Shown here: positions 2,529-33,299 of the stretch, piece by piece | Layout of the letters: every line of letters starts with the position of its first letter | Position numbering within the stretch: position 1 is the first letter of the stretch | Assembly (NCBI GenBank): GCA_903842345.1 | Contig: CAIMLR010000039.1 | Span: forward strand, 3,984-67,983 | From: an uncultured Myxococcales bacterium | Lineage (GTDB): Bacteria > Myxococcota_A > UBA9042 | Reading direction: 5' to 3' | Length of the DNA stretch: 64,000 nucleotides | Notes under the pieces: generated by a model | Seen by the model: only the letters and a program-made list of their open reading frames with translations | Database searches by the model: none | Told to the model about the DNA's origin: nothing | Position numbers and translations under genes: made by a program

Positions 2529-2563
2529 GCGGCGGGGTGAACGTCAACGTCTCACCCCGCCGC
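2529..2563 (-). terminator. Strong hairpin just downstream of the giant cytochrome gene (terminator or mRNA stabiliser)
   Basis: GCGGCGGGGTGA...TCACCCCGCCGC forms a perfect 12-bp stem 7 nt after the stop codon. There is no clear U-tract. Confidence 0.55.
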
Positions 2564-2570
2564 GGACCAT

Positions 2571-5500
2571 TTACCAACTGTAGTTGTGGCTCTGGCCGTG
2601 GCACGTGCCGCTGCAGCTCACGCGGCCGGTCGTGGCGTTGCGGGTGGTCGCCACGCTGCCGGTGTAGGACGCGCTGCTGCAGGTCGCATTGACGTCGCGC
2701 AGGCCATTCATGTGCAGCGCGGAGGTCGCCGCCGGGTGGCAACCGATACAGCCGACGTTGTTGGACGTCTTGGTGTGCGTGCTGTGCGTGCCGGAGGTCG
2801 GCGTGGTGGCGTGACACATCGCGCAGCTGCCGACCGTCCAGGCGGTGGTGCCCGTTCCCGCCCAATACGGCGTGACCAAGGGCGCCTGGACCGTCGCCGT
2901 GCCCGTGCGCCCGCTGGAGTGGCAGTTGCCAGTGCAGGTGCCGCGGCCGGTGAACGGCGTCGTACCCGCCGTAGTCGCCACGGCCCAGGTCATCGCGCTC
3001 GTCGGAGAACCGAGCGGGGTCGTGGGCAGCGCCGGGAACGCCACGTCGCCGTGGTGGCCCGCCGTCGTCAGATCCGCCGAGTACACATACTGCGCGATGT
3101 GGGCGATGTCGCCCGCGCCTGGAATCGTGTGACACGCGGTGCACGCAAATGCCACGTGCGTCGTGCTCGCCGCCAGGTGCTGCGCGTGCTTGCCCACGCC
3201 CAGCGTCGTCGTCGCCGTCTCATTGGCCACGCCGTGCGGCGGGTTGTTCTGCGTCGCGCCGCCATGGCAGAAGTTGCACGCCTTCCAGTCGCCACCCGTG
3301 CCGTTCGCCGGTGCATTCTGGCCGTGGCAGTTGATCGTGCTGTTGTTGCAGCTGACGTTCACCGTGCCGCCATCCAGGTTCGCGCCGTGGCACGTCGTGC
3401 ATGCCACGTTGTGCTCGTCGCGCATCTGGTTGCGGATGAAGTAGTTGCTGCCGTGGTGGTTGGCGCCGTAGTTCGGCGTCGTCCAGCCCGCGAGGTTGTG
3501 GTACTTGTTGGACTCGACCACGCCGTTCACGTGCAGGCTGCGGTCCTTCCACGTCGTCACTTTGGTCGCTGCGTCAAACGATGCCACGACCGCCGTGTGG
3601 CAGATGCTGCAATCCGTGTGCGCCACGTGCGTGCCACCGACGGGAATGCTGTGGCAAGCCAGGCCGCAGGCGTCAAAGCTGCCGTTGACCGTCGTCCACA
3701 CCGGCGTCTGCTTGATCGTCCCGCTGACGTTGGCGCTGGCGAGCGTCGTGCCGTGGCAGTAGACCGCGTTGCAGGTGACGTTGCTGGCGTTGAACGCCGG
3801 CGTTGCGCCATCGCTGGTGGCGATCGTGCCAAAGTTGATGTCGTCCGTGCCATTGGCGTGCAGCGGCTGCGCGGGAACCGTGTGGCAATCCACGCACTGC
3901 CCGTCACGATGCCACGTGTTGGTGCCCAGATGCTGCTGGTGCGCGCCGACCGCCGGCTGCGACGTCAGCGTTTCACCTTGCGTGCCCTTGGGCGGCGCGG
4001 GATCATTGCTGACGGCATCGCCATGGCAAGCCGTGCAGCTCAGGGCCGGCGCGTCAATCACGCCGTCGACGTGCCGCGTCGCGTCCTGCCAGACCACGGT
4101 CGGCGGCGCTTTGCCGACGCCCGGGATGAACGACGCGATCACCGCGCCGTGGCAATCCTGGCAATTGTTGTTCTGGACGTGCGGCAGGCCCGGCGGCGTC
4201 GTGTGGCAGCTCTGGCCGCACGAGTCGTACGTTCCGTCCACTTTCGTCCAGACTGGCGTCATCTTCAGCGTGCCGGTCGCGTTGGCGCCAAACGGCAGCG
4301 TGTTGCCGTGGCAGTAGACGCCGCTGCAGGTCGCGGTGGCGGTGTCAAAGCTCGGCTTCGCGCCGTTGACCGCGGCCGGGCCACCCCAGGCAAAGTCAAA
4401 GACGCCGTTGCTGTGGCTCGTCGACGACGGCACCACGTGGCAATCCTCGCACTGGACCTGACGGTGCCAATTGCTGGTGCTCACGTGCTGGCTGTGCGCG
4501 CCGACCGCCGGCTGCGTGGTCAGCGTCTCGCCGTTCGTACCCATCGGCGGCGCCGGGTTGTTGGTCGCCACGTCGCCGTGACAGGACGTGCAAGTCAGCG
4601 TCTTCACTTCCAGCACGCCGTCGACGTGCTTGGAACTGTCCGCCCAGACCGCCGTCTTGGTGCCCGGGTCGTAGCTCTGAATGACTTCGCCATGGCACGT
4701 CGCGCACGCCGTATTCTGCGGGTGCGTGCCGCCGGGCGGGTTGGTGTGGCAACTGGCGCCGCAGGAGTCAAACGTGCCGTTGACCGTCGTCCACACCGGC
4801 GTCTTGGCCGTGATGCCGCCCGGATTGGCTGCCGGCAACGTCGTCCCGTGGCAGTAGACCGCGTTGCAGGTCACGGTCGCCACGTCAAAGGCCGGCGTTG
4901 CGCCTGCCGCCGTTGCGACGGTGCCAAAGCTCATGTTTGCCGTGCCGTCGCTGTGCGACATGCTGACCGGAACCGCGTGGCAGTCCGTGCATTGGCCATC
5001 GCGGTGCCACGTGCTCGGCGTCAGGTGATTCTGGTGCGCGCCCACTGCCGCCTGGCTGGTCTGCGTCTCGCCCTTGGTGCCAAGCGGCGGCGCCGGGTCA
5101 TTCGTGGCAGCGTTGCCGTGACAGGACGTGCACGTCATCGCCTTCACTTCCACCTGGCCGTCGATGTGCAGCGCGCGATCCGCCCAGACTGCCGTCTTGG
5201 TGGCGACGTCGTAGCTCTGGATCACGTCCGTGTGGCAAGTCGCACATGCCGTGTTCTGCGGATGCGTGCCGCCGGGCGGATTGGTGTGGCAGCTCGCGCC
5301 GCAGGAGTCGAACGTGCCGTTGACCGTTGTCCACACCGGCGTCTTCTTTGTCGTCCCGCCGGAGTTGGCCGCGGGCAGCGTCGCGCCGTGGCAGTAGACC
5401 GCGTTGCAGGTCACCGTGCTGACGTCCCACGCCGGCGTGGTGCCGCCGGTCGCGGCGATGGTGCCAAAGTCGACGTCATCCACGCCGTTGGAGTGCAGCG

Positions 5501-8500
5501 ACGACGCCGGCACGACGTGGCAATCCGTGCACTGGACGTCGCGGTGCCACGTGCTCGTGCTCAAGTGCTGCGCGTGCGCGCCCACCGCGGGTTGCGTCGT
5601 CAGCGTCTCGCCCTTGGTGCCCTTGGGCGGCGCCGGGTTGTTGGTCGCCGTGTCGCCGTGGCAAGCCGTGCAACTGAGCGCCGGCGCGTCGATGATGCCG
5701 TCCACGTGCCGCGTCGCGTCCTTCCAAACCACCGTCGGCGCCGCGCCGTTGAAGCCCGGCGTGAACGAACTGATCACCGCGCCGTGGCAGTCCTGGCAGT
5801 TGTTGTTCTGCACGTGGGGCGCGCCGGGCGGCGTCGTGTGGCAGCTCTGGCCGCAGGAATCGTACGTCCCGTCGACCTTCGTCCACACCGGCGTCATCTT
5901 CAGCGTGCCGGTCGCGTTGGCGCCGAACGGCAGCGTGTTGCCGTGGCAGTAGACGCCGCTGCACGTGACCGTCGCGGTGTCAAAGCTCGGCGTCGCGCCG
6001 TTGACCGCTGCTGGGCCACCCCAGGCAAAGTCAAAGACGCCGTTGCTGTGGCTCGTCGACGTCGGCACCACGTGACAGTCATCGCATTTCACCTGGCGGT
6101 GCCAGTTGCTGCTGTTCAAGTGCTGGGTGTGCGCGCCGACCGCCGCCTGACTGGTCAGCGTTTCGCCCTTGGTGCCGAGCGGCGGCGCCGGGTTGTTGTT
6201 CACCGCGTCGCCGTGGCACGTCGTGCACGTCAGGGTCTTGACCTCGAGAATGCCGTCAATGTGCAGCGCCTTGTCCTTCCAGACGGCCAGCTTGCCGATG
6301 GGGTCGTAGCTCTGGATGACTTCCGGGTGGCACGTGGCGCAATTGGTGTTCTGCGGGTGCGATCCGCCGGGCGGATTCGTGTGGCAGCTGGCACCGCAAG
6401 AGTCAAACGAGCCATCCACGGTCGTCCATACCGGCGTCTTGGCCGTCGCGCCGCCCGCATTGGCCGCCGCCAGCGTCGTGCCGTGGCAGTACACCGCGTT
6501 GCACGTCACCGTATTGGGCTCAAAAGTCGGATTCGCGCCCGCCGTCTTGGCAACCGTGCCCCACGTGATGTCCGCGGTGCCGTTGCTGTGCGTCGTGCTC
6601 TGCGGCACCGTGTGGCAATCGACGCATTGGCCGTCGCGGTGCCACGAACTTGCCGTCAGGTGCTGCTGGTGCGCGCCGACCGCCGCCTGATTCGTCGCCG
6701 TCTCGCCGTGCGTACCCAGCGGCGGTGCAGGATCGTTCGTCGCCGCCGTGCCGTGGCAAGTCGTGCAACTGAGCGTGATCACCTCGACCGTACCGTCGAT
6801 ATGCTTGCCCTTGTCGACCCACACGGCCGTCTTGGCGTTGGCGTCGTAGCTCTGGATGACGGTCGGGTGGCACATCTGGCAGTTGCTGTTTTGCGGATGC
6901 GATCCGCCCGGCGGATTGGTGTGGCAGCTCGCCCCGCAGGAATCGTACGTGCCGTTGACGGTCGTCCAGATCGGCGCCTTCTGCGTCGTCCCGCCGGGAT
7001 TGGCCGCCGGCAGCGTCGCGCCGTGGCAGTACACCGCGTTGCAGGTCACAGTCGCCGGATCAAACTGTGGCAGCGTGCCGCCCGTCGTCGCCAGCAGACC
7101 AAAATCGACGTCGTCCACGCCATTGGAGTGCAGCGTCTGCGCCGGCACTTTGTGGCAATCCGTGCACTGGACGTCGCGGTGCCACGTGCTCGCGCTCAGG
7201 TGCTGCGCGTGCGCGCCCACGGCCGGCTGGGTCGTCAGCGTCTCGCCCTTGGTGCCCTTGGGCGGCGCGGGATTGTTGCTGGCGGCATCGCCATGGCATG
7301 CCGTGCAGGTCAGCGCCGGCGCGTCGATGATGCCGTTCACGTGACGCGAAGCGTCCTTCCACACCACCGTCGGCAGCCCGCCATTGACGCCCGGCGTAAA
7401 CGACTGGATCACCTCGCCGTGGCACTGCTCGCACTTGGTGCTCTGCACGTGCGGCGCACCCGGCGGCGTCGTGTGGCAGCTCGCGCCACAGGAATCAAAG
7501 GTGCCATCCACCTGCGTCCAAATGGGCTCCTGTTTCAGCGTGCCGCCTGGATTGGGACCGAACAGCGTCACGCCGTGGCAGTACACGCTGCTGCAGGTCA
7601 CCGTGCTTGCGTCAAATGTCGGCTGCGCGCCGCCCACCGTGCTCGGACCGCCAAAGCTCATTTCGGTCGTGCCGTTGCTGTGCGAGACGGAAGCCGGGAC
7701 CGTGTGGCAATCCGTGCATTGACCCTGACGGTGCCACGAGCTCGCGCTCAGGTGATTCTGGTGCGCGCCCACCGCCGCCGCAGTCGTGGCGACCTCGCCG
7801 TGCGTCCCGGTCGGCGGCGCCGGATCGTTCTTGACCGCGTCGCCATGGCACGTCGTGCACGTCAGCGTCTTCACTTCCACAATGCCGTCGATGTGCAAGC
7901 CCGGGCTGTTCCAGCTCGCGTTCTTGGTCGCCGGGTCGTAGTTGGCGATGACTTCCGTGTGGCAAATCTGGCACGCGGTGCTCTGCGGGTGACTGCCGCC
8001 CGGCGGATTGGTGTGGCAGCTCGCGCCGCAGGAATCAAACGTCCCGTTGACGGTCGTCCACACCGGCGATTTCTTGGTCGTGCCGCCCTGATTGGCCGCG
8101 GGCAGCGTGTTGCCGTGGCAGTACACGGCGTTGCAGGTCAGCGTGCCGGCGTCAAACGCAGGCGTGCTGTTGGCTGCCGTTGCGACCGCGCCCCACAGGA
8201 ATTCCACAATGCCGTCCGTGTGCGTCATCGACGTCGGCACGACGTGGCAGTCCGTGCACTGGCCGTCGCGGTGCCACGAGCTCGCGCCGAGGTGCTGCGC
8301 GTGCGCGCCCACGGCCGCCTGCGAAGTCAGCGTCTCGCCGAGCGTGCCCTTGGGCGGTGCGGGGTTATTGGTCGGCGCATCGCCGTGACACGTCGTGCAC
8401 GTCAGGCTGGTCAGTTCCACGCTGCCGTCGATGTGCAGGCCCGGGCTGGCCCACGTCGCGGTCTGCGTCGCTGCGTCAAACGAGGCGATGACCGGCGTGT

Positions 8501-11273
8501 GGCACAGCGCGCACTTGTCGTTCTTGGGGTGCGTGCCGCCCGGCGGGTTGGTGTGGCAACTGGCGCCGCATGAATCAAATGTGCCATCGACCTGCGTCCA
8601 CTTCGGCTGCGTCTTGATGGTGCCACCAGCTTTCGGCCCTGGCAGGGTGTTGCCGTGGCAGTAGACGCCGGAGCACGTCGTGGTCGCGGCGTCAAAAGCC
8701 GGCAGGGAGTTGCTGGACGTCGCGACATCGCCCCACGTGAAATCGATCTGGTTGTTCGAGTGTCCGACGGAAGCCGGCACCGTATGGCAGTCCGTGCACT
8801 GCCCGTCACGGTGCCACGCGCTCGCGGTCAGGTGCTGCGCGTGCGCGCCAACTGCCGCCTGCGTCGTCAGCGTCTCGCCCTTGGTGCCCTTGGGCGGCGC
8901 GGGGTTGTTGCTGGCCGCGTCGCCGTGGCAAGTCGTGCAGGTCAGGCCAATCACGTCGACGTTGCCGTTGATGTGCAGCTCTGCCTTGTTCCACGTCGCG
9001 ACGAGCGTCGTTGCGTCGTAGCTGGCAATCACGTCCGTGTGGCACTGCTCACACTTGCTATTGTTCGGATGCTTGCCGCCCGGCGGATTGGTGTGGCAGC
9101 TCGCGCCGCACGACTCGAACGAGCCGTCGTTCTGCGTCCATACCGGCGTCTGCTTCAGCGTGCCGCCGACGTTCGGTCCGGCCTTCAGCGTCGTGCCGTG
9201 GCAATACGCCGTGGCGCAGGTCAGCGTCTCGCTGTTGAACACCGGCTGCGCGCCATCGGCGGCCGAAACCGTGCCCCAATTGAACTCCGTCACGCCATTG
9301 GTGTGCGTCGTGGACTGCGGCACCGTGTGGCAATCCGCGCACTGTCCCTGGCGGTGCCAATCGCTGCCCTTCAAGTGCTTCTGGTGCGCGCCCACCGCCG
9401 CTTGGGTCGGCAGCATTTCGCCCTTGGTGCCCTTGGGCGGCGCGGGGTCGTTGGCCAGCGCATCGCCGTGGCAGCTGGTGCAGGTCAGACCGACAACCTC
9501 GATCTTGCCGTTGACGTGCAGCGCCGGATTGTTCCAGCTCGCCGTCGCGCTGAGCGGGTCGTAGGAGGAGATGACGTCCGTGTGGCACTGGCTGCAATTG
9601 CTCGCCTGCGGATGCGGTTCTGCCGGCGGATTGGTGTGGCAGCTCGCGCCGCACGTTTCAAAGCTGCCGTCGACCTGGTTCCAAATCGGCTCATGTTTGA
9701 CGATGCCGCCGACCTTCGGGTTGCCCGTGGTCACGCCGTGGCAGTACGTGTTGGAGCAGGTCACCGTGCCCGCGTCGAACGTCGGGTTGGCGCCGCTGGC
9801 AGAAGCGACCGCGCTGAAGGCAAAATCAAACACGCCGTTGGAATGCGCCGTCGAATCCGGAAGCGCATGGCAGTCGGTGCACAGGACCTGACGGTGCCAA
9901 TTGCCGCCCACCAAGTGCGCCGTGTGCGCGCCGACCGCCGCTTGGCTTGTCAGCGTCTCGCCCTTGGTGCCCTTGGGCGGCGCCGGGTTGTTGTTGGCCG
10001 CGTCGCCGTGGCAGGACGTGCAAGTGAGGTTGCCCACTTCCAGCAATCCGTCGATGTGCAGGTTCGGATTGGCCCACGTCGCCTTGTTGGTCACCGGGTC
10101 AAACGTCGCGATCACTTCTCCGTGGCAATTTGCGCAGTTGCTGTCCAGCGGGTGCTTGCCGCCGGGCGGCACCGTGTGGCAAGCCGTGCCGCACGCTTCC
10201 TGCGACCCGTCCACGACGGTCCACGTCGGCGTTTTATTGGACGTCGCGCCAGGCGCATCGCCGACCGGCAGCGTTCCGCCGTGGCAGTAGGAGCCCGAGC
10301 ACTGCAGCGTCGTCTGATCAAACGTACCCTGCTTGGCCAGCGGTCCCCAGACAAAATCGACCTTCGAGTTGTAGTGCGTCGAGGCATACGGATTCGGCAC
10401 CGGGTGGCACTCGTTGCACGTCACATCATGGCGCCAATCGGCTTTCTTCAAGTGCGACTGGTGCGCGCCCACGCCCGCGTAGCTCGTCTCCGTATGGCCG
10501 GCGAGGTCGTACGGCGGCGCGGGATCGTCCCGCAGCTGATCGCCGTGACACATGAAGCAGGCGGGCAGCCACTGGCTGATTTTCACGTCCGCTGCATCCA
10601 CGCCCGCGTCGACGTCCGGCTGCGCGACGTCCGCGCTCGCATCCGTCGCAGCATCTTCCCCGACCGTATCCGTGCCCGCGACGTCCTGAACCGGCACATC
10701 ATCCACTGCGGCGATGTCCGCCACGTCATCCACGGGCACGTCCGGCGTCGCCACGTCGTCCATGACCTCGGTCAAGTCGGTCGCGTCCACGATGTCATCC
10801 GGGGTGAGGATGACGTCCGTACCCAGCGCGACGTCCTCGGGCACATCCGGCGGCACATCGACCGTCACATCGACCGTCACGTCCGGCGCCGCGTCGGGGG
10901 CGGCGTCCAGCGCTGCATCCGGGGCAATGTCCGTCGCAACGTCCGGGGCCACGTCCGGAATCAGGATGATATCAATATCGTCAGCCACATCGGACTGCGC
11001 GTCCGCCGTCTCGGCTGCGTCGACATCCTGGCTGGCATCCGTCGCCGCATCCCCCGCAACATCCGTGGACTGCACGTCGTCGTGGGTATCCGCCTGGGTG
11101 TCGAGCTTGGCGTCCGTCTGCCCGTCGCCGTCCAATTGCGAGACGGGCGCGTCGTCCAGGACGTCGGTGCCGGTCGAACTGGTCGTCGAAGCCTTGTCGC
11201 CACAGCCCAGGATCAGGAGCAATCCACAAAGTATTCCGATCCTTGCGATGGTCGGCGTGGTCAATTCTGGCAT
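2571..11273 (-). CDS. Giant lipoprotein multiheme c-type cytochrome (CxxxxCH/CxxCH-domain family), ~2900 aa
   Basis: ATG 11273 follows a G-rich RBS. Signal peptide with lipobox LILG-C, then a ~210-aa Asp-rich linker, 13 repeats each with 3 CxxCH + 1 CX4CH + 1 CX3CH and spare His residues, and a C-terminal domain with 8 further motifs. Confidence 0.93.
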   Translation of the reverse strand: MPELTTPTIARIGILCGLLLILGCGDKASTTSSTGTDVLDDAPVSQLDGDGQTDAKLDTQADTHDDVQSTDVAGDAATDASQDVDAAETADAQSDVADDIDIILIPDVAPDVATDIAPDAALDAAPDAAPDVTVDVTVDVPPDVPEDVALGTDVILTPDDIVDATDLTEVMDDVATPDVPVDDVADIAAVDDVPVQDVAGTDTVGEDAATDASADVAQPDVDAGVDAADVKISQWLPACFMCHGDQLRDDPAPPYDLAGHTETSYAGVGAHQSHLKKADWRHDVTCNECHPVPNPYASTHYNSKVDFVWGPLAKQGTFDQTTLQCSGSYCHGGTLPVGDAPGATSNKTPTWTVVDGSQEACGTACHTVPPGGKHPLDSNCANCHGEVIATFDPVTNKATWANPNLHIDGLLEVGNLTCTSCHGDAANNNPAPPKGTKGETLTSQAAVGAHTAHLVGGNWHRQVLCTDCHALPDSTAHSNGVFDFAFSAVASASGANPTFDAGTVTCSNTYCHGVTTGNPKVGGIVKHEPIWNQVDGSFETCGASCHTNPPAEPHPQASNCSQCHTDVISSYDPLSATASWNNPALHVNGKIEVVGLTCTSCHGDALANDPAPPKGTKGEMLPTQAAVGAHQKHLKGSDWHRQGQCADCHTVPQSTTHTNGVTEFNWGTVSAADGAQPVFNSETLTCATAYCHGTTLKAGPNVGGTLKQTPVWTQNDGSFESCGASCHTNPPGGKHPNNSKCEQCHTDVIASYDATTLVATWNKAELHINGNVDVIGLTCTTCHGDAASNNPAPPKGTKGETLTTQAAVGAHAQHLTASAWHRDGQCTDCHTVPASVGHSNNQIDFTWGDVATSSNSLPAFDAATTTCSGVYCHGNTLPGPKAGGTIKTQPKWTQVDGTFDSCGASCHTNPPGGTHPKNDKCALCHTPVIASFDAATQTATWASPGLHIDGSVELTSLTCTTCHGDAPTNNPAPPKGTLGETLTSQAAVGAHAQHLGASSWHRDGQCTDCHVVPTSMTHTDGIVEFLWGAVATAANSTPAFDAGTLTCNAVYCHGNTLPAANQGGTTKKSPVWTTVNGTFDSCGASCHTNPPGGSHPQSTACQICHTEVIANYDPATKNASWNSPGLHIDGIVEVKTLTCTTCHGDAVKNDPAPPTGTHGEVATTAAAVGAHQNHLSASSWHRQGQCTDCHTVPASVSHSNGTTEMSFGGPSTVGGAQPTFDASTVTCSSVYCHGVTLFGPNPGGTLKQEPIWTQVDGTFDSCGASCHTTPPGAPHVQSTKCEQCHGEVIQSFTPGVNGGLPTVVWKDASRHVNGIIDAPALTCTACHGDAASNNPAPPKGTKGETLTTQPAVGAHAQHLSASTWHRDVQCTDCHKVPAQTLHSNGVDDVDFGLLATTGGTLPQFDPATVTCNAVYCHGATLPAANPGGTTQKAPIWTTVNGTYDSCGASCHTNPPGGSHPQNSNCQMCHPTVIQSYDANAKTAVWVDKGKHIDGTVEVITLSCTTCHGTAATNDPAPPLGTHGETATNQAAVGAHQQHLTASSWHRDGQCVDCHTVPQSTTHSNGTADITWGTVAKTAGANPTFEPNTVTCNAVYCHGTTLAAANAGGATAKTPVWTTVDGSFDSCGASCHTNPPGGSHPQNTNCATCHPEVIQSYDPIGKLAVWKDKALHIDGILEVKTLTCTTCHGDAVNNNPAPPLGTKGETLTSQAAVGAHTQHLNSSNWHRQVKCDDCHVVPTSTSHSNGVFDFAWGGPAAVNGATPSFDTATVTCSGVYCHGNTLPFGANATGTLKMTPVWTKVDGTYDSCGQSCHTTPPGAPHVQNNNCQDCHGAVISSFTPGFNGAAPTVVWKDATRHVDGIIDAPALSCTACHGDTATNNPAPPKGTKGETLTTQPAVGAHAQHLSTSTWHRDVQCTDCHVVPASSLHSNGVDDVDFGTIAATGGTTPAWDVSTVTCNAVYCHGATLPAANSGGTTKKTPVWTTVNGTFDSCGASCHTNPPGGTHPQNTACATCHTDVIQSYDVATKTAVWADRALHIDGQVEVKAMTCTSCHGNAATNDPAPPLGTKGETQTSQAAVGAHQNHLTPSTWHRDGQCTDCHAVPVSMSHSDGTANMSFGTVATAAGATPAFDVATVTCNAVYCHGTTLPAANPGGITAKTPVWTTVNGTFDSCGASCHTNPPGGTHPQNTACATCHGEVIQSYDPGTKTAVWADSSKHVDGVLEVKTLTCTSCHGDVATNNPAPPMGTNGETLTTQPAVGAHSQHVSTSNWHRQVQCEDCHVVPSSTSHSNGVFDFAWGGPAAVNGAKPSFDTATATCSGVYCHGNTLPFGANATGTLKMTPVWTKVDGTYDSCGQSCHTTPPGLPHVQNNNCQDCHGAVIASFIPGVGKAPPTVVWQDATRHVDGVIDAPALSCTACHGDAVSNDPAPPKGTQGETLTSQPAVGAHQQHLGTNTWHRDGQCVDCHTVPAQPLHANGTDDINFGTIATSDGATPAFNASNVTCNAVYCHGTTLASANVSGTIKQTPVWTTVNGSFDACGLACHSIPVGGTHVAHTDCSICHTAVVASFDAATKVTTWKDRSLHVNGVVESNKYHNLAGWTTPNYGANHHGSNYFIRNQMRDEHNVACTTCHGANLDGGTVNVSCNNSTINCHGQNAPANGTGGDWKACNFCHGGATQNNPPHGVANETATTTLGVGKHAQHLAASTTHVAFACTACHTIPGAGDIAHIAQYVYSADLTTAGHHGDVAFPALPTTPLGSPTSAMTWAVATTAGTTPFTGRGTCTGNCHSSGRTGTATVQAPLVTPYWAGTGTTAWTVGSCAMCHATTPTSGTHSTHTKTSNNVGCIGCHPAATSALHMNGLRDVNATCSSASYTGSVATTRNATTGRVSCSGTCHGQSHNYSW
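3520..10560 (-). repeat. 13 intragenic tandem repeats of ~545 bp (~180 aa) with a higher-order ~1635-bp period
   Basis: Recurring unit CxxCHGD..PAPPxGTxGET..AVGAHxxHL..WHR..CxDCH..CxxxYCHG..CGxSCH..CxxCH..H(I/V)(D/N)G. Near-identical DNA blocks start at 4261 and 5896. Confidence 0.9.
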
Positions 11274-11351
11274 AGAGTCCCCCTGATTCTGACTGGCGAA
11301 AGCGGCGTAAGCACGGTGCGCAGCACATTCCACAGGCCACGCAGCGACCGT

Positions 11352-11367: not shown

Positions 11368-11419
11368 CCCGCGAACAAGGGTCGAAACGGGTCGCATTTG
11401 GGTCGCATCAAGGCGAATC

Positions 11420-16493: not shown

Positions 16494-16733
16494 TCTGATC
16501 CGCCACTCGCGGGAAGAATGGCCGCCGTTGACCGCCGTCCATGGGCGCGCCGCGGTCGGTTGTGGCGGCGGCAATGGCCAAAACGTGACGACGACCGCGA
16601 AGTCCCGCAAGTCCGCCGTAAACTTCCGGAGTTTGCGCGCTGGTTCACCGCGAGTTTACTTGCCGCTGGGCGCTGCGATCCGGTACGCTGAGGGATTGCG
16701 CCGATGGTGACAAACCGGCGAGGTGAACTGTCC

Positions 16734-18923
16734 ATGCGGATGCGGCCGACCAGCTTTCAAAATAGCCCAATTTTCGCCCTCTTGCCCCGCCTCGCTGCGG
16801 CGCTGATCGGCGTCTCAACCGCCATCGCATGCAGCACGCCGGCGGCCAACAAGGATGGCGACGCGATCGCGGACGACGCGACAACGGGCGACACCGGTGC
16901 TGAACTCGGCGCGGGACAGATCTGCCTGCCCGGCAGCGCGACCTCCTGCGCGACGGACGACTACGTGACGCGCTGCAACGACGGCGGCACGGCGATCGAG
17001 ACCGTGCTCTGCACCAACGGCGACGGCGAACCCACCAAGTGCTTTGAGAATGGCCGGTGCAGCGACTGCGTGCCAGGCCTCGGCAAGCGGTGCGCGCCAA
17101 CCGACTCGACCGTGGTCGAACATTGCGACGACACCGGCCGCTGGGTCACCGACCAGCAATGCGACGCGGCCAGCGGCCAGCAATGCGCGCCCGGCGGATT
17201 GTGCCAAAAAGCCTGCGACATCAACGTAAAAGCCAACAGCTACGTCGGATGCGCATTCTGGGCAACGGACCTCGACAACGCGTTCGTCCCCGGCGGCGCG
17301 CGGAGCTATTTTGACGCCGCCAACGCGCAGTACGCCATCGTCGTGTCCAATCCGTCAGACAAGCTGACCGCGGACATCAAGATCGGCTACTTTGAGGACG
17401 GCAAGGAACAGGAGCAGACGCTCGACTCCCAGAACAATCCGCTGGATTTGTCGCCACTTGGCCCGGGCGATCTGCGGACGTTCCTGCTGCCGCCGCGCAA
17501 CATCGACGCCACGTCATCGACGTTCCAGGCGTGGCGGGTCACGTCGTCGGCACCGATCGCGGCGTATCAGTTCAACCCGCTTGAAAACGTTGGCGTTTAC
17601 TCCAATGATGCGACGAATCTGCTGCCGGAAGAGCTGCTTGGCACCTACTACATCGCCATGACGCGCGAGGAGACGTTCTCCATTTTGCGCAGCTTCATCA
17701 CGATCGTCGCGACCCAGGGCGGCCAGACCAGCGTGACCGTGACGTTCCCGTCGCCCGACAATGACGCCAGCGGCGGAACGTGGCCGCTGCTCACGCTCGC
17801 CAGCCAGGATGGCGCGATCAAGTCCTACAAAAGCGGCGAATCTGCGTCGTTCACGCTGAGCCAGTGGGGCACGCTGAACATCGAGACGAACATGGTCGGC
17901 AGCGATCTGACGGGCGCGGTCATCCTGGCCGACAAGAAGATCGCGGTGTTCGCCGGCAGCGAAGCCGCCAACGTGCCCAACACCAACCACTGCGACGTCG
18001 CCAAATGCAAGCCGGGCGACCTGAGCACCGGCCAAAAGTGCGGCCACTGCGTGTGGGACGGCAAGACGCAATGCGCGAGCAACGACGACTGCGGCGCCTT
18101 TGTGATCTGCTGCGCCGACCATCTGGAAATGCAGATGTTTCCGGTGCCGGTGTGGGACAACCACTACGTGGCCGTGAAGCTGTTTCCGCGCGGCAAGGAG
18201 CGCGATTCGTGGCGCATCCTGGCGGCGACCGACGGCACGATCGTCAATCTGGTGCCCGCGCCCAAAGATCCCAAGGGCAAGGCGGTGAGCGTGCCGGTGC
18301 TGAACAAGGGCGAGTGGTACGAGTTCGAAACCGTCGACAACTTTGAGATTCTGTCCCGCCATGAGGACAAGACGCCCGCGCCGGTGTTGATCGGCCACTT
18401 CATGGCCAGCCAGGACGCCCCGGATCCCGGCGCGCAACCGGACGATGCCGGCACAGGCGATCCCGCGTTTCTGTTGGCGATTCCGTCGGCGCAGTGGCGC
18501 TCGGAGTACGTGTTCCTGACGCCGGACAAATACCGCTTCAACTACATCTCCGTCGCGGCGCCGATCCACCGCGTCTGCGGCACGACGACGGCAAACAAGG
18601 GCAAGACCTGCACGACGGACAGCGATTGCGGCGATGGCGCGGCGACCAACGCGTGCGCGGACGACACGGTCGTGACGTTTGACGGCCAGCCGGTGCCGCC
18701 CGACCAATTCTTCAACATTTCCAAGAGCTACAAAGGCGCGCGCTTTGCCGTGAACGCAGGTCCGCACACCGTGCGTGGCCTGCCGGTGCTCGGCACGGAT
18801 GGCAAGCCCGCGGAATCGCGCGTTGCCGTCGACGTCTACGGTTTTGACCAGTACGTGTCCTACGGCTATCCCGCCGGGCTGGACTTGAAGGACCTGAAAT
18901 ACGTCAAGCAACCGGGACAGTGA
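16734..18923 (+). CDS. IgGFc-binding-domain lipoprotein with Cys-rich repeats
   Basis: Lipobox AIAC, Cys-rich N-terminal region, and motifs SYVGCAFWATDLDN, AYQFNPL..YSNDA..LLP, ADHLEMQMFPV..W, GDPAF...QWR..Y.F and SYGYPAG. Confidence 0.85.
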   Translation: MRMRPTSFQNSPIFALLPRLAAALIGVSTAIACSTPAANKDGDAIADDATTGDTGAELGAGQICLPGSATSCATDDYVTRCNDGGTAIETVLCTNGDGEPTKCFENGRCSDCVPGLGKRCAPTDSTVVEHCDDTGRWVTDQQCDAASGQQCAPGGLCQKACDINVKANSYVGCAFWATDLDNAFVPGGARSYFDAANAQYAIVVSNPSDKLTADIKIGYFEDGKEQEQTLDSQNNPLDLSPLGPGDLRTFLLPPRNIDATSSTFQAWRVTSSAPIAAYQFNPLENVGVYSNDATNLLPEELLGTYYIAMTREETFSILRSFITIVATQGGQTSVTVTFPSPDNDASGGTWPLLTLASQDGAIKSYKSGESASFTLSQWGTLNIETNMVGSDLTGAVILADKKIAVFAGSEAANVPNTNHCDVAKCKPGDLSTGQKCGHCVWDGKTQCASNDDCGAFVICCADHLEMQMFPVPVWDNHYVAVKLFPRGKERDSWRILAATDGTIVNLVPAPKDPKGKAVSVPVLNKGEWYEFETVDNFEILSRHEDKTPAPVLIGHFMASQDAPDPGAQPDDAGTGDPAFLLAIPSAQWRSEYVFLTPDKYRFNYISVAAPIHRVCGTTTANKGKTCTTDSDCGDGAATNACADDTVVTFDGQPVPPDQFFNISKSYKGARFAVNAGPHTVRGLPVLGTDGKPAESRVAVDVYGFDQYVSYGYPAGLDLKDLKYVKQPGQ

Positions 18924-19014
18924 GCCATCGCGGCGCGCCCCGATTGCCCTGCCCCGCTGTTTGCCGAATCACGTTGGCCGTTCCATCGGCACCGTGCGGT
19001 TTGAAGGAGTCGCC

Positions 19015-22000
19015 ATGAATCCGCAACGCCAGTCGTTCCGACCGCTTGCCCACGTGTTGCTGCTGCTGGGCGTCGTCCACGGCCTCGCGCTGACCGCGTG
19101 CAGTTCACCGTCTTCCGGCGGCCAAGCCAATCAGGCCGATCAGGACGTCGCGACCGGCGATGCAACGGCGACCGACGCGATCGCGGGGAAGGACGCGATT
19201 GCCGCCTCCGACGCAAGCACGCAGACACAAGCCGGTTTCTCGCTTGAATCGCTGAGCCCGTCTGAAGGACGCGCAAGCGGCGGCGAATCCATCGTGCTCA
19301 ATGGCCACGGCTTCACGGACGGCGTCCAGGTGATCTTCGGCAGCGCGCCGCTCGACGCGGCTGTCGTGTACGTGATCGACGAATCGCAAATCCAGATCAC
19401 CACGCCGCCGCATGAGACGGGGCTTGTGGACGTGACGGTCGTGCTGCCGGGCGACAAGCCCAAGTCGGCGTCGCTGGCCAAGGCGTACCTGTATTTCAAC
19501 GACGTGCTCGTGACCAAGGTCGATCCGCCGCAGGGTCCGACGGCGGGCGGGACGGCGATCAGCATCCACGGCACCGGCTTCACGGGCGACTGTCAGGTCC
19601 TGGTTGGCGGCAAGCAGGCGCTGAACGTCCAGGTGGTGTCCGACGACACCGTGACGGCCATCACGCCGCCGGGCGCGTTTGGCGCGGTGCCGGTTCACGT
19701 CATCAACACGCGCGGCACAGGCCTGCTCAAGAAAGGCTTCTTCTACACCGCGGCGCCGACCATCACGTCCGTTTCGCCTGCTTCCGGTCCCACCGTCGGC
19801 GGCACACAGGCGATTGTCCACGGCACCGGCTTCAGCGCCGACGTTGACCTCCAAATCGGCGCCGGCAAGGCCACCGTCATCAGCGTGAAGGGCAGCACGG
19901 AAGCGCACATCACCACGCCGCCGGGCGCCGCGGGCAAAACGGACGTGACGGCGACAACCGCGTTTGGCGCCAACACCCTGGCGGGCGGTTACGTCTACTC
20001 CGACGACACCGGCGCGGCTGCCACGCAAATCCTGTCGATTGCCCCGCCAAGCGGCCCGTTGGCCGGCGGCAACACCGTCGCCCTCATCGCCACCGGACTC
20101 ATTGCCAAGAGCGACACGACGGTCCTGTTCGGGCAGAAACTCGCGGAAATCCTCAGCGTCGACGCCGTCGCCCACACGGCGCTCGTCTCCGTGCCCGCGG
20201 GCAGCGCGGTCGGCGCGGTCGACGTCACGCTCATGACGTCCAAAGGCACCGACAAGGCGACTGGCGGCTACACCTACAACGATGTCCTCACCGTCACTGG
20301 CATCTCGCCCTCGGCGGGCCCCAGCGAAGGCGGCACCAAGATCGTCATCCACGGCAGCGGCTTCAGCAAAGGCAGCGTCAACGTCAAGATCGGCGCGCTG
20401 GCGGCGAGCGCCGTTGCCATCGTCAGCGACAGCGAAATCCAGGCCATCACGCCACCCGGCCAGCCCGGTTATGCCGACGTCACCGTGCTCAACGACGTCG
20501 CGGCGGTCACGCTCACCGCCGGCTACACGTACACCGGCGGCAAATTGGCGCTCTACGTCGTCTACCCGCCGATGGGCGCGCAGGCGGGCGGCACGCTTGT
20601 CCACGTCTACGGCCAGGGCTTTGACGCGGGCATGGGCGTCACGTTCGGCGGCAATCCGGCGACGCACTTCACGTTCGTCGATCCCGGCCACGTCACGGTC
20701 AAGACGCCGCCCGGCAAGGTCGGCTCGGTCGACGTCGGCGTCACGGTCAAGGACGGCAAGGCGACTTTGACCAATGGCTACGCCTACTTCAACCCCATGT
20801 CCGGCAACGGCGGCACGTGGGGCAGCACCGTCGACGGCTCCGTCAACATCACCGTCCTGGACGCCAGCAACAACGCCGCCATTCCCGACGCGTTCACGAT
20901 GCTGTGGACCGATCCGACGACGCCGTACCAGGGCTACACCAACGCCGATGGCCAGATCACCTTCTCCGGCGACGACTTGAGCGGCAAACAGATGATCTCC
21001 GCATCCAAGACTGGCTACGACGCCGCCTCCGTGGTGCTGTTTGACGCGCAAAACGTCACGGTGCACCTGCATCCGACCTCGCCGCCCTCGCCCGGCGGCC
21101 CGCCGCCTGGGCAGATTCCGCCGACGATTTCTGGCCACGTGACCGGCGTCGACAAGTACGTCTTTGTGCCCAACGGCGACTGCAACCAGTACACCGGCCA
21201 GGGTCCGGGCGCGACGTGCAACGCGTGCTCCGCGGACAGCCAGTGCGGCGCGGGCTTCGCGTGCTTGGACATCGGCGCCGACGGCAGCGGCAACACCAAC
21301 GGCAAGCGCTGCGTCGCCGATTGCGGCCAAGGCCAAGGCTGTCCGGCGCAGTTCAAGTGCGCGGGCGTCGGCACGTCCGGCTTCCGCTGCATCCCCGCCG
21401 CGGGCGAGATCGCGTCATTCTGCCTGCATTCCAAGCCGGCGCTGTTCAGCCAGGACGACTACCCGGCCGAAGGCCCGGGCTTCACCGCCGATCCGCTGAA
21501 AGCCTACGCGTACAAAATCGAAGTCGCGCCGGGTGAGCAGGCCGTCATCTGCTTTGGCGGCTACAAGACCTTTGGCGCGGTCCTGCAGGCCGACGACGCG
21601 ACGTCCATGGCCGCGTTCACGCCGACCGTCATGGGCATCAAGCGCCACGTGATGGTGCAGCCGGAGGAGCAGGTCACCGGCGTGGACGTCAAGCTGGACA
21701 CGCCGCTGGGCCAAACCGCGTCCGTCCGCCTCGACCAGCCGCCGACGTGGGGCGCGCCGGCGTCGACCATCATCAACTACGTCCAGCCGCAGCTGATCCT
21801 CGGCTCCGATGGCGCGCTGCGCTGGCCGACGCGCGCCTACAAGTTCGAGTTCGACGTTGATCCGAGCTTCATGACGTTGACCAACCTGCCCAACAGCTTC
21901 TCGGGCGATCTCGCCGACGCGTCCTTGACCCTTGAGACGTTCGTTTTTGACCTGAACGAGGCGACGCAGCTGCCGCGCTCCATCAACATCAAGGACAACG

Positions 22001-23250: not shown

Positions 23251-23290
23251 GCAAACCGCGCGCGGCCCGTGCCGGCGCTGTGGAATTCCC

Positions 23291-27915: not shown

Positions 27916-27971
27916 CAAGTTCTGGGGCGCGCGTGGGTGGGAACGCAACGGTTTCAATTGGGTAGGTCACG

Positions 27972-30724: not shown

Positions 30725-31669
30725 CTAGACCGGAGGCACCACGGATTCGATGATTTGATGCAAAAGCGCTGCGATCGTCTCACGTTCGCTCGCGGACCCG
30801 GTCATGCCGGTCGGAATCACCCGGTGGCCAGCGACCGGCACGAAGAGTTGCCGCACGTCGTCCGGCGTCACAAACGTCCGCCCAGAGACCAGGGCGCGCG
30901 CTTGCACCGCGCGGTAAAAGCCGATTGCGGCGCGCGTGGACAGGCCCAGCTCGAAAGAACTGTGCGAACGCGTCGCTTGGGTCAACGCGTGCAGGTAGGC
31001 CAGCACTTCATCGCTCACGTGGACCTGTTCAGCCGCCGCGCACAGCGCCGCGACGTCACCCGGACCGCACACCGCGGGCGGCATCGTCTCCGGCGCGCCG
31101 TGCTGCCGAATCAGCGCCATTTCCTGCGCGCTTTCCAGATAGCCCACCGACGTCCGCACCAGGAAGCGGTCCAACTGCGACTCCGGCAGCGGATAGGTGC
31201 CGTGAAACTCGCGGGGATTCTGCGTCGCCAGCACGATGAACGGCTGCGGCAGGGCGTGCGTCACGCCGTCGACGGTCACACGGCCCTCGGCCATCGACTC
31301 CAGCAGCGCCGATTGTGTGCGCGGCGTCGTGCGATTGATTTCGTCCGCCAGGAGCACGTTGGCAAAGACCGGCCCGGGCTTGAACTCGAAGCGGCCAGTC
31401 TTCTGGTCATAGATCGAGATGCCGACGATGTCTGCGGGCAAAAGATCGCTGGCGAACTGAATCCGCTGCCAGGAAAGGCCGAGCACGTGCGCGAACGTGC
31501 GCGCGAGCGTCGTCTTGCCCACGCCGGGGACGTCTTCAAACAGCACGTGACCGCGCGCGAGGATCGCCACCATCACAAGCTCGACGATCTCCGTCTTGCC
31601 GACGAACGCCTGCTCGACTCCGGCGATGATGCGGCGGCAGAGAATTTCCGGCGAAACAGCTTCCGTCAT
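30725..31669 (-). CDS. MoxR-family AAA+ ATPase
   Basis: Motifs GHVLFEDVPGVGKT, RIQF..DLLPADI, LADEINRTTPRTQSALLE and GTYPLPESQLDRF. ATGA overlap with the upstream stop. Confidence 0.93.
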   Translation of the reverse strand: MTEAVSPEILCRRIIAGVEQAFVGKTEIVELVMVAILARGHVLFEDVPGVGKTTLARTFAHVLGLSWQRIQFASDLLPADIVGISIYDQKTGRFEFKPGPVFANVLLADEINRTTPRTQSALLESMAEGRVTVDGVTHALPQPFIVLATQNPREFHGTYPLPESQLDRFLVRTSVGYLESAQEMALIRQHGAPETMPPAVCGPGDVAALCAAAEQVHVSDEVLAYLHALTQATRSHSSFELGLSTRAAIGFYRAVQARALVSGRTFVTPDDVRQLFVPVAGHRVIPTGMTGSASERETIAALLHQIIESVVPPV

Positions 31670-32925: not shown

Positions 32926-33299
32926 GGCTTTTCGTCCCAGCGCAGGCGATTGGCCCGCACCTGTTCGGTCGTCGGCCGATGCTTGGGCTGCAGACGGCCT
33001 TCGGCGTCGCGATGCGGCGATGCAACGCGGAACAGCTTGGGCGTGTCCTGCGTCGTCGCGTTCAGCGACAAGTCGCCCGCGAACATGTCCGGCAGCTCGC
33101 GATCCTCAAAGATCGCCTGCCACGGACACTCGGGCTCGCACGCGCCGCAGTTGATGCATTCGGTCGGATGGATGTAGAGCATGTTCGGCCGTTCGGGCGA
33201 CACGGCGTCCTTGGGCTCGTAGATGCACTCGACCGGACACACTTCCACGCAGCCCTGATCCAGGCAGTCAACACAGAGGCGCGTAATCACATAGGCCAT
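32922..33299 (-). CDS. 7Fe-type (FdxA-like) ferredoxin
   Basis: Cys motifs [18 protein letters not shown] and [12 protein letters not shown]. Confidence 0.9.

What the first reader, a model, noticed from the sequence alone, without database searches (positions are those of the whole stretch)
2571..11273. Giant ~73-heme-motif lipoprotein cytochrome built from 13 penta-heme modules: candidate single-chain electron wire
Seen: a ~2900-aa protein with a lipobox, an acidic linker and 13 tandem ~180-aa units. Each unit carries CxxCH, CxxCH, CX4CH, CX3CH and CxxCH, plus about five spare conserved His (HxxH, WHR, HxNG, HP/HV, HxDG). Manual count is 44 CxxCH, 15 CX3CH, 13 CX4CH and 1 CX6CH. Known: CxxxxCH/CxxCH domains occur in Geobacter and Anaeromyxobacter extracellular cytochromes. 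Inference: this is a membrane-tethered, covalently continuous, bis-His heme chain that could act like a cytochrome nanowire without needing to polymerise, in a probably myxobacterial lineage.
Basis: partly seen in the sequence, partly recalled or inferred. Interest (0 to 1): 0.88.

Follow-up and report, generated by a model that had tools for sequence, protein, structure and literature searches.

The report
Giant 73-heme lipoprotein cytochrome, known family
This is a real 2900-residue membrane-tethered protein with 73 heme-binding sites, probably a long single-chain electron conductor for respiration outside the cell, but it belongs to an already annotated cytochrome family that has larger members in public data.

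Summary
Window 2571-11273 (-) encodes a 2900-aa protein with 44 CxxCH, 15 CX3CH, 13 CX4CH and 1 CX6CH, 73 sites in all. It has a lipobox Cys24, a 208-aa acidic linker, 13 tandem penta-heme units of 179-185 aa and a 314-aa C-terminal domain with 8 heme sites.

146 of 149 Cys lie in heme motifs. Five spare His per unit are invariant in 99 three-unit windows.

It is not an assembly artefact. Units share only 60-87% DNA identity. The same 13 units are 1:1 orthologous in three other species-level MAGs that keep the map/proA synteny.

It is a clear TIGR01904 (CxxxxCH/CxxCH) member, 300.7 bits with 13 stretches. The lineage is Myxococcota, judged from the labels of related MAGs.

The kind is known. 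Public databases hold 146 relatives of 1595-5075 aa, and one of 5264 aa has 151 motifs. Single-chain "long wire" cytochromes are already in print (PMC11492766).

Heme-chain continuity is supported only indirectly: no inter-unit linkers, 36 aa per heme, AF2 pLDDT 80.7. No PDB relative was found.

Verdict: new member of a known kind, moderate interest.

The parts
11278..11284 (-). Shine-Dalgarno-like AGGGGGA, 4 nt upstream of the ATG start
   Evidence: Read directly from the sequence.
11205..11273 (-). Signal peptide, aa 1-23 (MPELTT...LLLILG), ending in the lipobox L-I-L-G
   Evidence: Translation. A hydrophobic core is followed by [LVI]-x-[GAS]-C. A lipobox-like pattern with Cys lies within the first 40 residues of the close relatives P0003, P0005, P0006, P0007 and P0008. 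No SignalP or LipoP was run.
11202..11204 (-). Cys24, the predicted lipid-modified first residue of the mature protein. Position +2 is Gly and +3 is Asp.
   Evidence: One of only 3 Cys outside heme motifs.
10578..11201 (-). Acidic low-complexity linker, aa 25-232: 54 D, 4 E, 3 K, 0 R; rich in D, A, V, T and P; short 12-nt repeats
   Evidence: Composition. TRF finds 12-nt and 24-nt repeats at 10854-10958. Only 36-41% identical in orthologs that are 74-87% identical in the C-terminal domain.
3516..10577 (-). Array of 13 tandem penta-heme units, aa 233-2586 (65 heme motifs). Each unit reads CxxCH - PAPP - VGAHxxH - WHR - CxxCH - HSNG - CX4CH - CX3CH - PPGGxHP - CxxCH - HxDG. There are no linkers between units. 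Units 6-7-8, 9-10-11 and 12-13 form a three-unit super-repeat.
   Evidence: TIGR01904 gives 13 stretches. Invariant Cys and His in 99 windows. Units are 1:1 orthologous in L011, L013 and L014.
2574..3515 (-). C-terminal domain, aa 2587-2900, with 8 heme motifs (5 CxxCH, 2 CX3CH, 1 CX6CH). It is shared by clade members carrying 14 to 83 heme motifs. Its middle part is a diverged repeat unit.
   Evidence: Alignment A3 of 36 sequences. tblastn identity is 44-86% in 35 further loci that passed the length filter, L011 left out. Positions 35-250 of A3 also match the repeat units at E about 1e-10 to 1e-14. The AF2 model of this domain was unusable, pLDDT 50.
2571..2573 (-). Stop codon TAA
2529..2563 (-). 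Perfect 12-bp GC-rich hairpin directly after the stop codon and before proA. Candidate terminator or mRNA-stabilising element; it has no U-tract.
   Evidence: Sequence. RNA fold -33.6 kcal/mol, z = -4.72, and 0 of 200 shuffles fold as well.

Best explanation
The gene encodes a Sec-exported, lipid-anchored c-type cytochrome of the CxxxxCH/CxxCH (TIGR01904) family. The apoprotein is about 295 kDa, and 73 covalently bound hemes would add about 45 kDa.

Shown from sequence:
- 73 C-Xn-CH sites.
- Five invariant distal-ligand His per penta-heme unit.
- No inter-unit linkers.
- A conserved lipobox.
- A conserved 13-unit architecture across species.

Inferred:
- All sites carry low-spin bis-His hemes, packed at about 36 residues per heme into one continuous chain. 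That would make a rod several tens of nanometres long.
- After heme attachment in the periplasm, the lipoprotein is sorted away from the inner membrane, since it has no +2 Asp or Lys, and is displayed at or beyond the outer membrane. The cell encodes CcmE, CcmF-like and ResB/CcsA-like maturation proteins.
- The polyanionic linker holds the rod off the cell surface.
- Electrons would enter the proximal end, at the divergent unit 1. They would come from quinol oxidases and a porin-cytochrome-like conduit encoded elsewhere in the genome. They would leave along the rod or at the conserved 8-heme C-terminal tip to insoluble or macromolecular acceptors such as Fe(III) minerals or humic matter, or flow the other way.

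In short, it most likely works as a fixed-length, single-chain electron conduit for extracellular electron transfer. Electron storage would be an unavoidable side property of 73 hemes.
For: Identity as a heme protein:
- Motif counts.
- 146 of 149 Cys lie in motifs.
- TIGR01904 scores 300.7 bits with 13 stretches; PF14522 and PF09698 also hit.

Heme sites rather than disulfides:
- Site 4 (CX3CH) aligns with canonical CxxCH, and site 3 (CX4CH) aligns with CX3CH, in distant relatives.
- The second motif of the C-terminal domain varies between CxxCH, CX4CH and CX6CH among 36 orthologs.

Bis-His ligation:
- H39, H42, H66, H143 and H175 are invariant in 99 three-unit windows taken from the window and 25 loci.
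- The same five His are kept in distant relatives.
- The 15 Met of the body sit at scattered positions, and no Met is among the invariant or nearly invariant columns of the units.

Continuity (indirect only):
- Units abut without linkers.
- 36.2 aa per heme.
- The AF2 three-unit model has mean pLDDT 80.7 and pTM 0.54. Junction blocks score 76-87. The lowest blocks (57-61) lie inside units, not between them.

Real gene under selection:
- 1:1 orthology of all 13 units in L011, L013 and L014, which keep the map | cytochrome | proA synteny.

Export and partners:
- Lipobox.
- CcmE, CcmF-like and ResB/CcsA-like genes.
- On contig C14, NrfD, a 4Fe-4S protein and a 4-heme protein lie next to a 36-heme cytochrome, a 468-aa protein with no family hit and a 13-heme cytochrome.
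- On contig C22, a 7-heme cytochrome is fused to a cytochrome-b domain (CbcL-like), next to a 12-heme protein.

Precedent in print:
- AF2-predicted single-chain long wires, extracellular and outside porin-cytochrome operons, in Geobacter (PMC11492766, passages).
- Boreal-lake Myxococcota MAGs are rich in novel multiheme clusters together with CbcL, ExtABC and MtrC (bioRxiv 10.1101/2022.03.26.485925, passages).
Against: - No model with hemes or coordinates was available, so no heme-heme distance was measured. A pTM of 0.54 leaves the inter-unit geometry uncertain.
- The locus is housekeeping: Met aminopeptidase upstream, proA and rsfS downstream. No porin, cytochrome or secretion gene lies nearby, so no genetic link ties the protein to a conduit.
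- Localisation rests on a pattern rule and on sorting rules I recalled. No SignalP or LipoP run was made, and no type II secretion search was made.
- No experimental data exist for any member with more than about 27 hemes in the papers I read.
Confidence: 0.6

Rival explanations
1. Electron capacitor. The protein mainly stores charge, up to 73 electrons per molecule, so that respiration can continue when external acceptors are briefly absent in a redox-fluctuating pond. Long-range conduction would not be its main role.
For: - 73 heme sites.
- The gene stands alone, away from conduit genes.
- A capacitor role is proposed in print for cytochromes with over 100 heme motifs (PMC11495043, passages) and for large multiheme cytochromes (PMC7399161, passage).
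- The DNA is held in pond metagenome runs of 2 studies.
Against: - Storage does not explain why exactly 13 individually conserved units are kept in order across species.
- It does not explain the lipid anchor with a long spacer, or the conserved terminal domain.
- Several smaller cytochromes would store charge equally well.
- The two roles are not exclusive.
Confidence: 0.2
2. Periplasmic or envelope-spanning conduit. The lipoprotein stays on the inner membrane, or on the inner face of the outer membrane, and carries electrons across the periplasm instead of being surface-exposed.
For: - Lipoproteins of diderm bacteria face the periplasm by default.
- No type II secretion or surface-export gene is linked to the locus.
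Against: - A 27-heme relative is modelled at 350 Angstrom against 170 Angstrom for the periplasm (PMC11492766, passage). A 73-heme rod would be several times too long.
- Neither Asp nor Lys at +2. The retention rules themselves are recalled, not tested here.
Confidence: 0.1
3. Polymerising subunit. The giant chains still join head to tail, C-terminal domain to unit 1, into longer filaments, so that the single chain is a building block and not the whole wire.
For: - Unit 1 is the most divergent unit (41-49% identity to the others), and the C-terminal domain is distinct and conserved. Specialised ends are what an interface would need.
- Polymerised cytochrome nanowires exist in bacteria and archaea (PMC11492766, background passage).
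Against: - A lipid anchor with a 208-aa spacer at the N-terminus fits a cell-attached end better than a filament interface.
- No test was run, and no similarity to solved filament subunits was found.
Confidence: 0.07
4. Assembly artefact, or a non-heme Cys/His-rich repeat protein. Either the array length is inflated by mis-assembly of repeats, or the motifs form disulfides or metal sites in an adhesin-like protein.
For: - Short-read contigs of four other runs cover the array only in pieces of 350-2300 bp.
- One contig joins 5274 to 8002, skipping 2727 nt in frame.
- Two paralogs in the same genome run off contig ends.
Against: - Units are only 60-87% identical in DNA.
- The longest exact internal repeat is 81 nt, and the odd joint sits exactly on a shared 32-mer.
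- The unit-length pattern and unit-by-unit orthology recur in independently assembled species-level MAGs.
- Every motif keeps its His. 146 of 149 Cys are in C-Xn-CH, and the family HMM matches 13 times.
Confidence: 0.03

Closest known systems
CxxxxCH/CxxCH domain c-type cytochromes (NCBIfam TIGR01904 / Pfam PF09698 GSu_C4xC__C2xCH), defined on Geobacter sulfurreducens and annotated in Anaeromyxobacter (for example P0030, 2081 aa, 58 motifs, Anaeromyxobacter sp. Fw109-5)
   Same: - Family HMM matched 13 times, far above the cut-off.
- The same unit logic, with four CxxCH-type sites plus one CX4CH and five distal His.
- Lipobox-like N-termini are common among relatives.
- Tandem arrays of variable length.
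   Different: - The window's clade has CX3CH instead of CxxCH at site 4 of every unit.
- It has an extra near-invariant WHR His.
- It has its own 8-heme C-terminal domain, found mainly in the window's own taxonomic family: 22 of 36 genomes searched, with full-length hits in about 15 genomes.
- Many members have a long acidic linker.
AlphaFold2-predicted single-chain 'long wire' multiheme cytochromes of Desulfuromonadia: a 27-heme protein of Geobacter metallireducens, and OmcA (GSU2884), OmcG and OmcH (Soares et al. 2024, PMC11492766; passages read, supplements not seen)
   Same: - One polypeptide with many closely spaced hemes.
- Predicted extracellular.
- Not encoded in a porin-cytochrome operon.
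- Longer than the periplasm is wide.
- Little secondary structure.
   Different: - Different phylum.
- 73 motifs here against 27. That survey's maximum was 87 per chain.
- Whether those proteins carry the same penta-heme unit was not tested here.
GSU1996, the dodecaheme 'nanowire' cytochrome built of four c7-type triheme domains (recalled from Pokkuluri et al. 2011; cited as reference 37 in PMC11492766)
   Same: Modular tandem repeat of small multiheme domains giving a linear heme array in one chain. The Pfam c7 model (PF14522) scores 167 bits on the whole protein.
   Different: - Triheme rather than penta-heme modules.
- One His-Met heme per module in GSU1996 (recalled). Here no Met is among the invariant or nearly invariant columns of the unit alignments.
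- GSU1996 is periplasmic and has 12 hemes, not 73.
- No PDB chain reached significance in sequence searches. No single PF14522 stretch passes on its own.
Polymerised cytochrome nanowires OmcS, OmcE and OmcZ (Geobacter) and archaeal homologs
   Same: Proposed function: long-range extracellular electron transport through a continuous stack of bis-His hemes.
   Different: Those are filaments of small subunits with 4-8 hemes (recalled). Here the length is encoded in one chain and fixed at 13 units. No sequence or fold similarity was found.
MtrC/OmcA-type surface decaheme lipoproteins of Shewanella
   Same: Lipobox-anchored multiheme cytochrome expected at the cell surface as the terminal electron-transfer component.
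   Different: PF22113 (MtrC/MtrF domains II/IV) does not hit the window protein. There is no adjacent MtrA/MtrB-like partner. The window protein has seven times more hemes.

Membership tests
TIGR01904 / PF09698 CxxxxCH/CxxCH domain c-type cytochrome | Score above the curated HMM cut-off | tested here: met
   TIGR01904.2 scores 300.7 bits against a cut-off of 27, E = 1e-91, with 13 stretches. PF09698 scores 27.4 against 21.7.
TIGR01904 / PF09698 CxxxxCH/CxxCH domain c-type cytochrome | A CX4CH motif followed by a CxxCH motif within each domain | tested here: inconclusive
   CX4CH is present in all 13 units. The motif that follows is CX3CH (CGASCH), not CxxCH. It aligns with CxxCH of distant relatives, so this is a one-residue loop variant at the same site.
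c-type (covalent heme) cytochrome | C-Xn-CH sites on an exported protein, in a genome that has a heme-attachment system | tested here: met
   73 sites. N-terminal signal peptide with a lipobox. CcmE, CcmF-like and ResB/CcsA-like genes in the genome.
c-type (covalent heme) cytochrome | Heme actually attached | not testable with these tools
   Needs a heme stain and mass spectrometry.
Bacterial lipoprotein | Signal peptide ending in a lipobox [LVI]-[ASTVIL]-[GAS]-C | tested here: met
   LILG-C24 follows a hydrophobic core. A lipobox-like pattern with Cys lies within the first 40 residues of the close relatives P0003, P0005, P0006, P0007 and P0008. This is a pattern match only; SignalP and LipoP were not available.
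c7-type modular 'nanowire' cytochromes (GSU1996 type, PF14522) | Triheme c7 modules, with a His-Met heme in each module | tested here: not met
   Modules carry five hemes. No Met is among the invariant or nearly invariant columns of the unit alignments. PF14522 passes only as a summed score, with 0 stretches passing alone. No PDB sequence hit.
Polymerising cytochrome nanowires (OmcS, OmcE, OmcZ) | Sequence or fold similarity to a solved filament subunit | tested here: not met
MtrC/OmcA surface decaheme cytochromes | PF22113 / MtrC-type domains and an adjacent MtrAB-like conduit | tested here: not met
   No PF22113 hit. The neighbours are Met aminopeptidase, proA and rsfS.
Porin-cytochrome complex component | Encoded next to a porin and a periplasmic multiheme cytochrome | tested here: not met
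   Not so at this locus. A candidate cluster lies elsewhere in the genome, on contig C14.

The most novel reading that the evidence does not exclude
The 13-unit array is a length-tuned molecular ruler. It would be a rigid heme rod of defined length, roughly 60-95 nm when scaled from published per-heme spacings. Its unit number and unit identities have been held constant since before several species diverged. The reason would be that the rod must bridge a fixed distance, for example a capsule, slime or sheath layer, or the gap to a partner cell or particle. On this reading its penta-heme unit is a heme-packing fold with no solved relative, and the polyanionic linker acts as a stand-off spacer.
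Probability: 0.25. Interest if true: 0.65.

Novelty: new member of a known kind. Interest (0 to 1): 0.35.

Why it matters
If the inferred mechanism holds, a cell can build a conductor tens of nanometres long, of genetically fixed length, as one polypeptide. That would complement the polymerised OmcS-type nanowires. It would also give a tractable modular system, since 1-3 units could be expressed alone, for studying heme-chain conduction.

The clade is common in Myxococcota MAGs labelled as coming from lakes and groundwater, and this gene's DNA is held in pond metagenome runs. Extracellular electron transfer to iron and humic matter is thought to shape carbon turnover in such waters.

The family, its giant members and the single-chain-wire idea are already known, so this locus adds detail rather than a new principle. 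The details it adds are:
- a CX3CH site-4 variant;
- a clade-specific 8-heme C-terminal domain;
- strict conservation of 13 orthologous units.

Tried and rejected
- C-terminal domain structure. AF2 on alignment A3 gave pLDDT 50.1 and pTM 0.42. The model is unusable and was not searched.
- PDB sequence searches with the whole protein and with the unit profile gave no significant hit. The best were unrelated proteins at E = 0.19-0.59.
- ESM Atlas by features only re-found PF14522/PF09698 clusters. No structure search was possible.
- RNA evidence: no RNA holder was listed among the 7 runs, so nothing can be said on expression.
- Read laying. Four runs gave only contig pieces. None spans the array, so the array was neither confirmed nor refuted as one molecule by this route. 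Parts without cover in X3 and X5 are uninformative.
- The X3 contig joint 5274>8002 (2727 nt, in frame). I considered it as a real 8-unit allele. I set it aside as undecidable, because it lies exactly on a 32-nt exact repeat, which is the assembler's word length plus one.
- TRF does not see the 540-nt units, because the period exceeds 500 and the copies are diverged.
- The sigma-70 promoter scan upstream found 0 sites.
- Literature. Searches for 'giant multiheme', 'mega-cytochrome', 'giant cytochrome', 'megacytochrome' and 'extremely large multiheme' found 0 papers. The search for TIGR01904, GSuC4xC and PF09698 found 2 papers, neither describing this clade. I therefore found no description of this clade in the library searched.
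- Supplementary tables are closed and were not seen. Those of PMC11492766 (Table S2, Fig. S1), PMC11495043 (Table S5) and the boreal-lake preprint may list such proteins.
- The longer TTG start at 11411 was rejected. It would put 46 residues before the signal peptide, and orthologs place the lipobox Cys at about the same position as the ATG start does.
Full report
**The observation.** The ORF listing and translation show one open frame on the minus strand from 11411 to 2571. The plausible start is the ATG at 11273. It is preceded by AGGGGGA four bases upstream, gives a 2900-aa product and places a signal peptide at the very N-terminus.

A regex count gives 44 CxxCH, 15 CX3CH, 13 CX4CH, no CX5CH and 1 CX6CH. 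The protein has 149 Cys and 172 His. Of the 149 Cys, 146 lie in these motifs. The other three are C16 in the signal peptide, C24 in the lipobox and C2865.

**Architecture.**
- Residues 1-23 form a signal peptide ending L-I-L-G, followed by Cys24.
- Residues 25-232 form a linker with 58 Asp/Glu and 3 Lys/Arg.
- Residues 233-2586 form 13 head-to-tail units of 179-185 aa.
- Residues 2587-2900 form a separate domain with eight further motifs.

Each unit reads CxxCH, PAPP, VGAHxxH, WHR, CxxCH, HSNG, CX4CH, CX3CH, PPGGxHP, CxxCH, HxDG. Units are 41-86% identical in protein and 60-87% in DNA. Units 6/9/12, 7/10/13 and 8/11 are each other's closest relatives, so the C-terminal half grew by duplication of a three-unit block.

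**Is the array real?** The longest exact repeat inside the gene is 81 nt.

Contigs from four other public runs, from two studies labelled pond metagenome, match at 99-100% and cover most of the gene. Of 30 bins, X2 covers 30, X3 covers 29, X4 covers 30 and X5 covers 28. The pieces are only 350-2300 bp long and none spans the array. One X3 contig joins 5274 to 8002, an in-frame loss of 909 codons. That joint sits on a 32-nt exact repeat, so it may be a graph artefact or a real shorter allele. I cannot tell which.

The stronger evidence is comparative. Among 73 related loci from species-representative genomes, five (L011-L015) carry ORFs with the same number of motifs. They show the same or nearly the same unit-length series 179,180,181,180,180,184,180,180,185,180,180,185.

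Each window unit has its best match in the unit of the same rank in L011, L013 and L014, 13 of 13 each at 76-98% identity. The figure is 12 of 13 in L012 and 11 of 13 in L015. L011, L013 and L014 also keep the flanking Met aminopeptidase and proA genes. L012 and L015 do not, and L015 lies in the same MAG as L013. So there are two old paralogous 13-unit lineages.

More distant clade members (L018, L021, L024) show no rank-for-rank correspondence, so their arrays expanded independently. An assembly artefact cannot produce this pattern.

**Family.** NCBIfam TIGR01904 (CxxxxCH/CxxCH domain c-type cytochrome) matches with 300.7 bits and 13 stretches. Pfam gives PF14522 and PF09698.

A search restricted to proteins of 1595-5075 aa found 146 relatives at E <= 0.001 among 8000 scored candidates. 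Many are already named 'CxxxxCH/CxxCH domain-containing protein', in Anaeromyxobacter and in Myxococcota or delta-proteobacterial MAGs.

A profile of the unit finds 2248 cluster representatives at E <= 0.001 and 599 at E <= 1e-30, out of 1.84 billion.

Counting motifs in the proteins fetched, 28 of 235 others have at least 73. Examples are P0004 (3795 aa, same clade, 102-103 motifs), P0011 (116), P0014 (126-127) and P0122 (5264 aa, 151), the last also with a lipobox-like N-terminus. So 73 hemes is about half of what the family reaches.

**Heme sites and ligands.** In an alignment of 99 three-unit windows, the invariant columns are the ten Cys and five His of the motifs plus five spare His per unit: H39, H42, H66, H143 and H175. 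The windows comprise 11 from the window and 88 from 25 loci, taken at steps of two units, with L011 left out as near-identical. The WHR His is kept in at least 90% of sequences.

The same five His are kept in distant relatives, where WHR is lost. No Met appears among the invariant or nearly invariant columns of the unit alignments. Five distal His for five hemes is what all-bis-His ligation needs.

The unusual motifs are loop-length variants of ordinary sites. Site 4 (CGASCH) aligns with CG-xCH of distant relatives, and site 3 is CX3CH in one of them. The CX6CH of the C-terminal domain is CX4CH or plain CxxCH in orthologs.

**Structure.** AF2 on the 99-row alignment gave a 544-aa three-unit model with mean pLDDT 80.7 and pTM 0.54. 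It has very little secondary structure. Its weakest stretches (57-61) lie at residues 61-70 of each unit. The two junctions score 76-87.

**Context and partners.** The locus is housekeeping. Met aminopeptidase lies divergently upstream. proA and rsfS lie downstream, after a 12-bp perfect hairpin (-33.6 kcal/mol, z = -4.7). The rest of the window holds large secreted repeat proteins and ordinary metabolism genes.

Elsewhere the 5.85-Mb genome (95.7% complete) holds:
- two smaller paralogs with the same C-terminal domain (971 aa, and over 828 aa cut by a contig end);
- a cluster of NrfD, a 4Fe-4S protein and a 4-heme protein, next to a 36-heme cytochrome, a 468-aa protein without any family hit and a 13-heme cytochrome;
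- a 7-heme cytochrome fused to a cytochrome-b domain, which is CbcL-like;
- CcmE, CcmF-like and ResB/CcsA-like maturation genes.

So the organism has the parts expected of an extracellular-electron-transfer chain, but nothing links them genetically to this gene.

**Distribution.** The C-terminal domain profile matches 33 of 61 related genomes. It matches all 5 other genomes of the genus and 22 of 36 of the family. Full-length hits lie almost entirely within that family. The named relatives are uncultured Myxococcales, Polyangiaceae or Myxococcota MAGs.

**What is in print.** Soares et al. 2024 (PMC11492766; passages read) report up to 87 heme motifs per chain in Desulfuromonadia. They also report AF2 models of single-chain 'long wires': a 27-heme protein 350 Angstrom long, and OmcA, OmcG and OmcH. 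These are predicted extracellular and lie outside porin-cytochrome operons.

A wastewater survey reports secreted cytochromes with up to 112 motifs and suggests capacitor roles (PMC11495043; passages). A boreal-lake preprint ranks Myxococcota MAGs highest in novel multiheme clusters (10.1101/2022.03.26.485925; passages). My searches found no paper on this particular clade. Supplements were closed.

**Mechanism and verdict.** The best-supported reading is a lipid-anchored, probably surface-displayed, single-chain bis-His heme conduit of fixed length. It has a specialised proximal unit and a conserved distal 8-heme domain, and serves extracellular electron transfer. Charge storage is a compatible second role.

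What is shown is the sequence architecture, its conservation and the family membership. The heme occupancy, the packing, the localisation and the direction of electron flow are inferred.

Its sense of novelty was too high. This is a new member of a known kind. Its most notable features are the strict conservation of 13 orthologous units and a unit fold without a solved relative.

Noticed in passing
window 2529-2563 (-): A perfect 12-bp GC-rich hairpin lies right after the cytochrome stop codon and before proA (-33.6 kcal/mol, z = -4.72). It has no U-tract. It may end or stabilise a monocistronic transcript.
   Followed up: partly
window 16704-30086 (+): A run of five large ORFs that are probably secreted: 739 aa with an IgGFc_binding domain, 1429 aa with six IPT/TIG domains, 649 aa BNR/YCF48-like, and 1052 aa and 704 aa without Pfam hits. 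It looks like a cell-surface or adhesion gene cluster.
   Followed up: no
window 37671-41666 (-): A 1331-aa protein with FG-GAP repeats.
   Followed up: no
window 30725-33299 (-): A MoxR-type AAA ATPase, a TPR protein (with weak CcmH/CycH-TPR similarity) and a small 4Fe-4S ferredoxin lie in a row.
   Followed up: no
L084 (G000:C14:3000-19000): NrfD, a 4Fe-4S protein and a 4-heme cytochrome are divergent from a 36-heme TIGR01904 cytochrome, a 468-aa protein with no family hit (possible porin) and a 13-heme cytochrome. This is a candidate quinol-oxidase plus porin-cytochrome conduit.
   Followed up: partly
L085 (G000:C22:18000-26507): A 593-aa fusion of a 7-heme c-type cytochrome with a cytochrome-b561/FdnI-like membrane domain (CbcL-like) lies next to a 12-heme cytochrome and a two-component pair.
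   Followed up: partly
L087 (G000:C30 end) and L088 (G000:C34 end): Two contigs of the window's genome end inside paralogous cytochrome genes. One is a C-terminal part of over 828 aa, the other a 245-aa N-terminal part with a lipobox. They may be the two halves of one gene broken by the assembler.
   Followed up: no
window 5274 / 8002: One contig of run X3 joins these two places, skipping 2727 nt (909 codons, five units) in frame. The joint lies at a 32-nt exact repeat in the most conserved part of units 5 and 10. It is either an 8-unit allele or a k-mer artefact.
   Followed up: partly
P0122 (public protein, 5264 aa): The largest relative seen: 30 unit matches, 151 C-X(2-4)-CH motifs and a lipobox-like N-terminus.
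   Followed up: partly
L013, L015, L021, L025 (one MAG): One related MAG carries four clade members with 72, 72, 67 and 32 motifs. Two of them are 13-unit paralogs, and only one of those lies at the map/proA locus.
   Followed up: partly
window 2574-3515 (-), alignment A3 columns 56-72: The second heme motif of the C-terminal domain changes loop length among orthologs. It is CxxCH in L042 and L049, CX4CH in many, and CX6CH in the window.
   Followed up: yes
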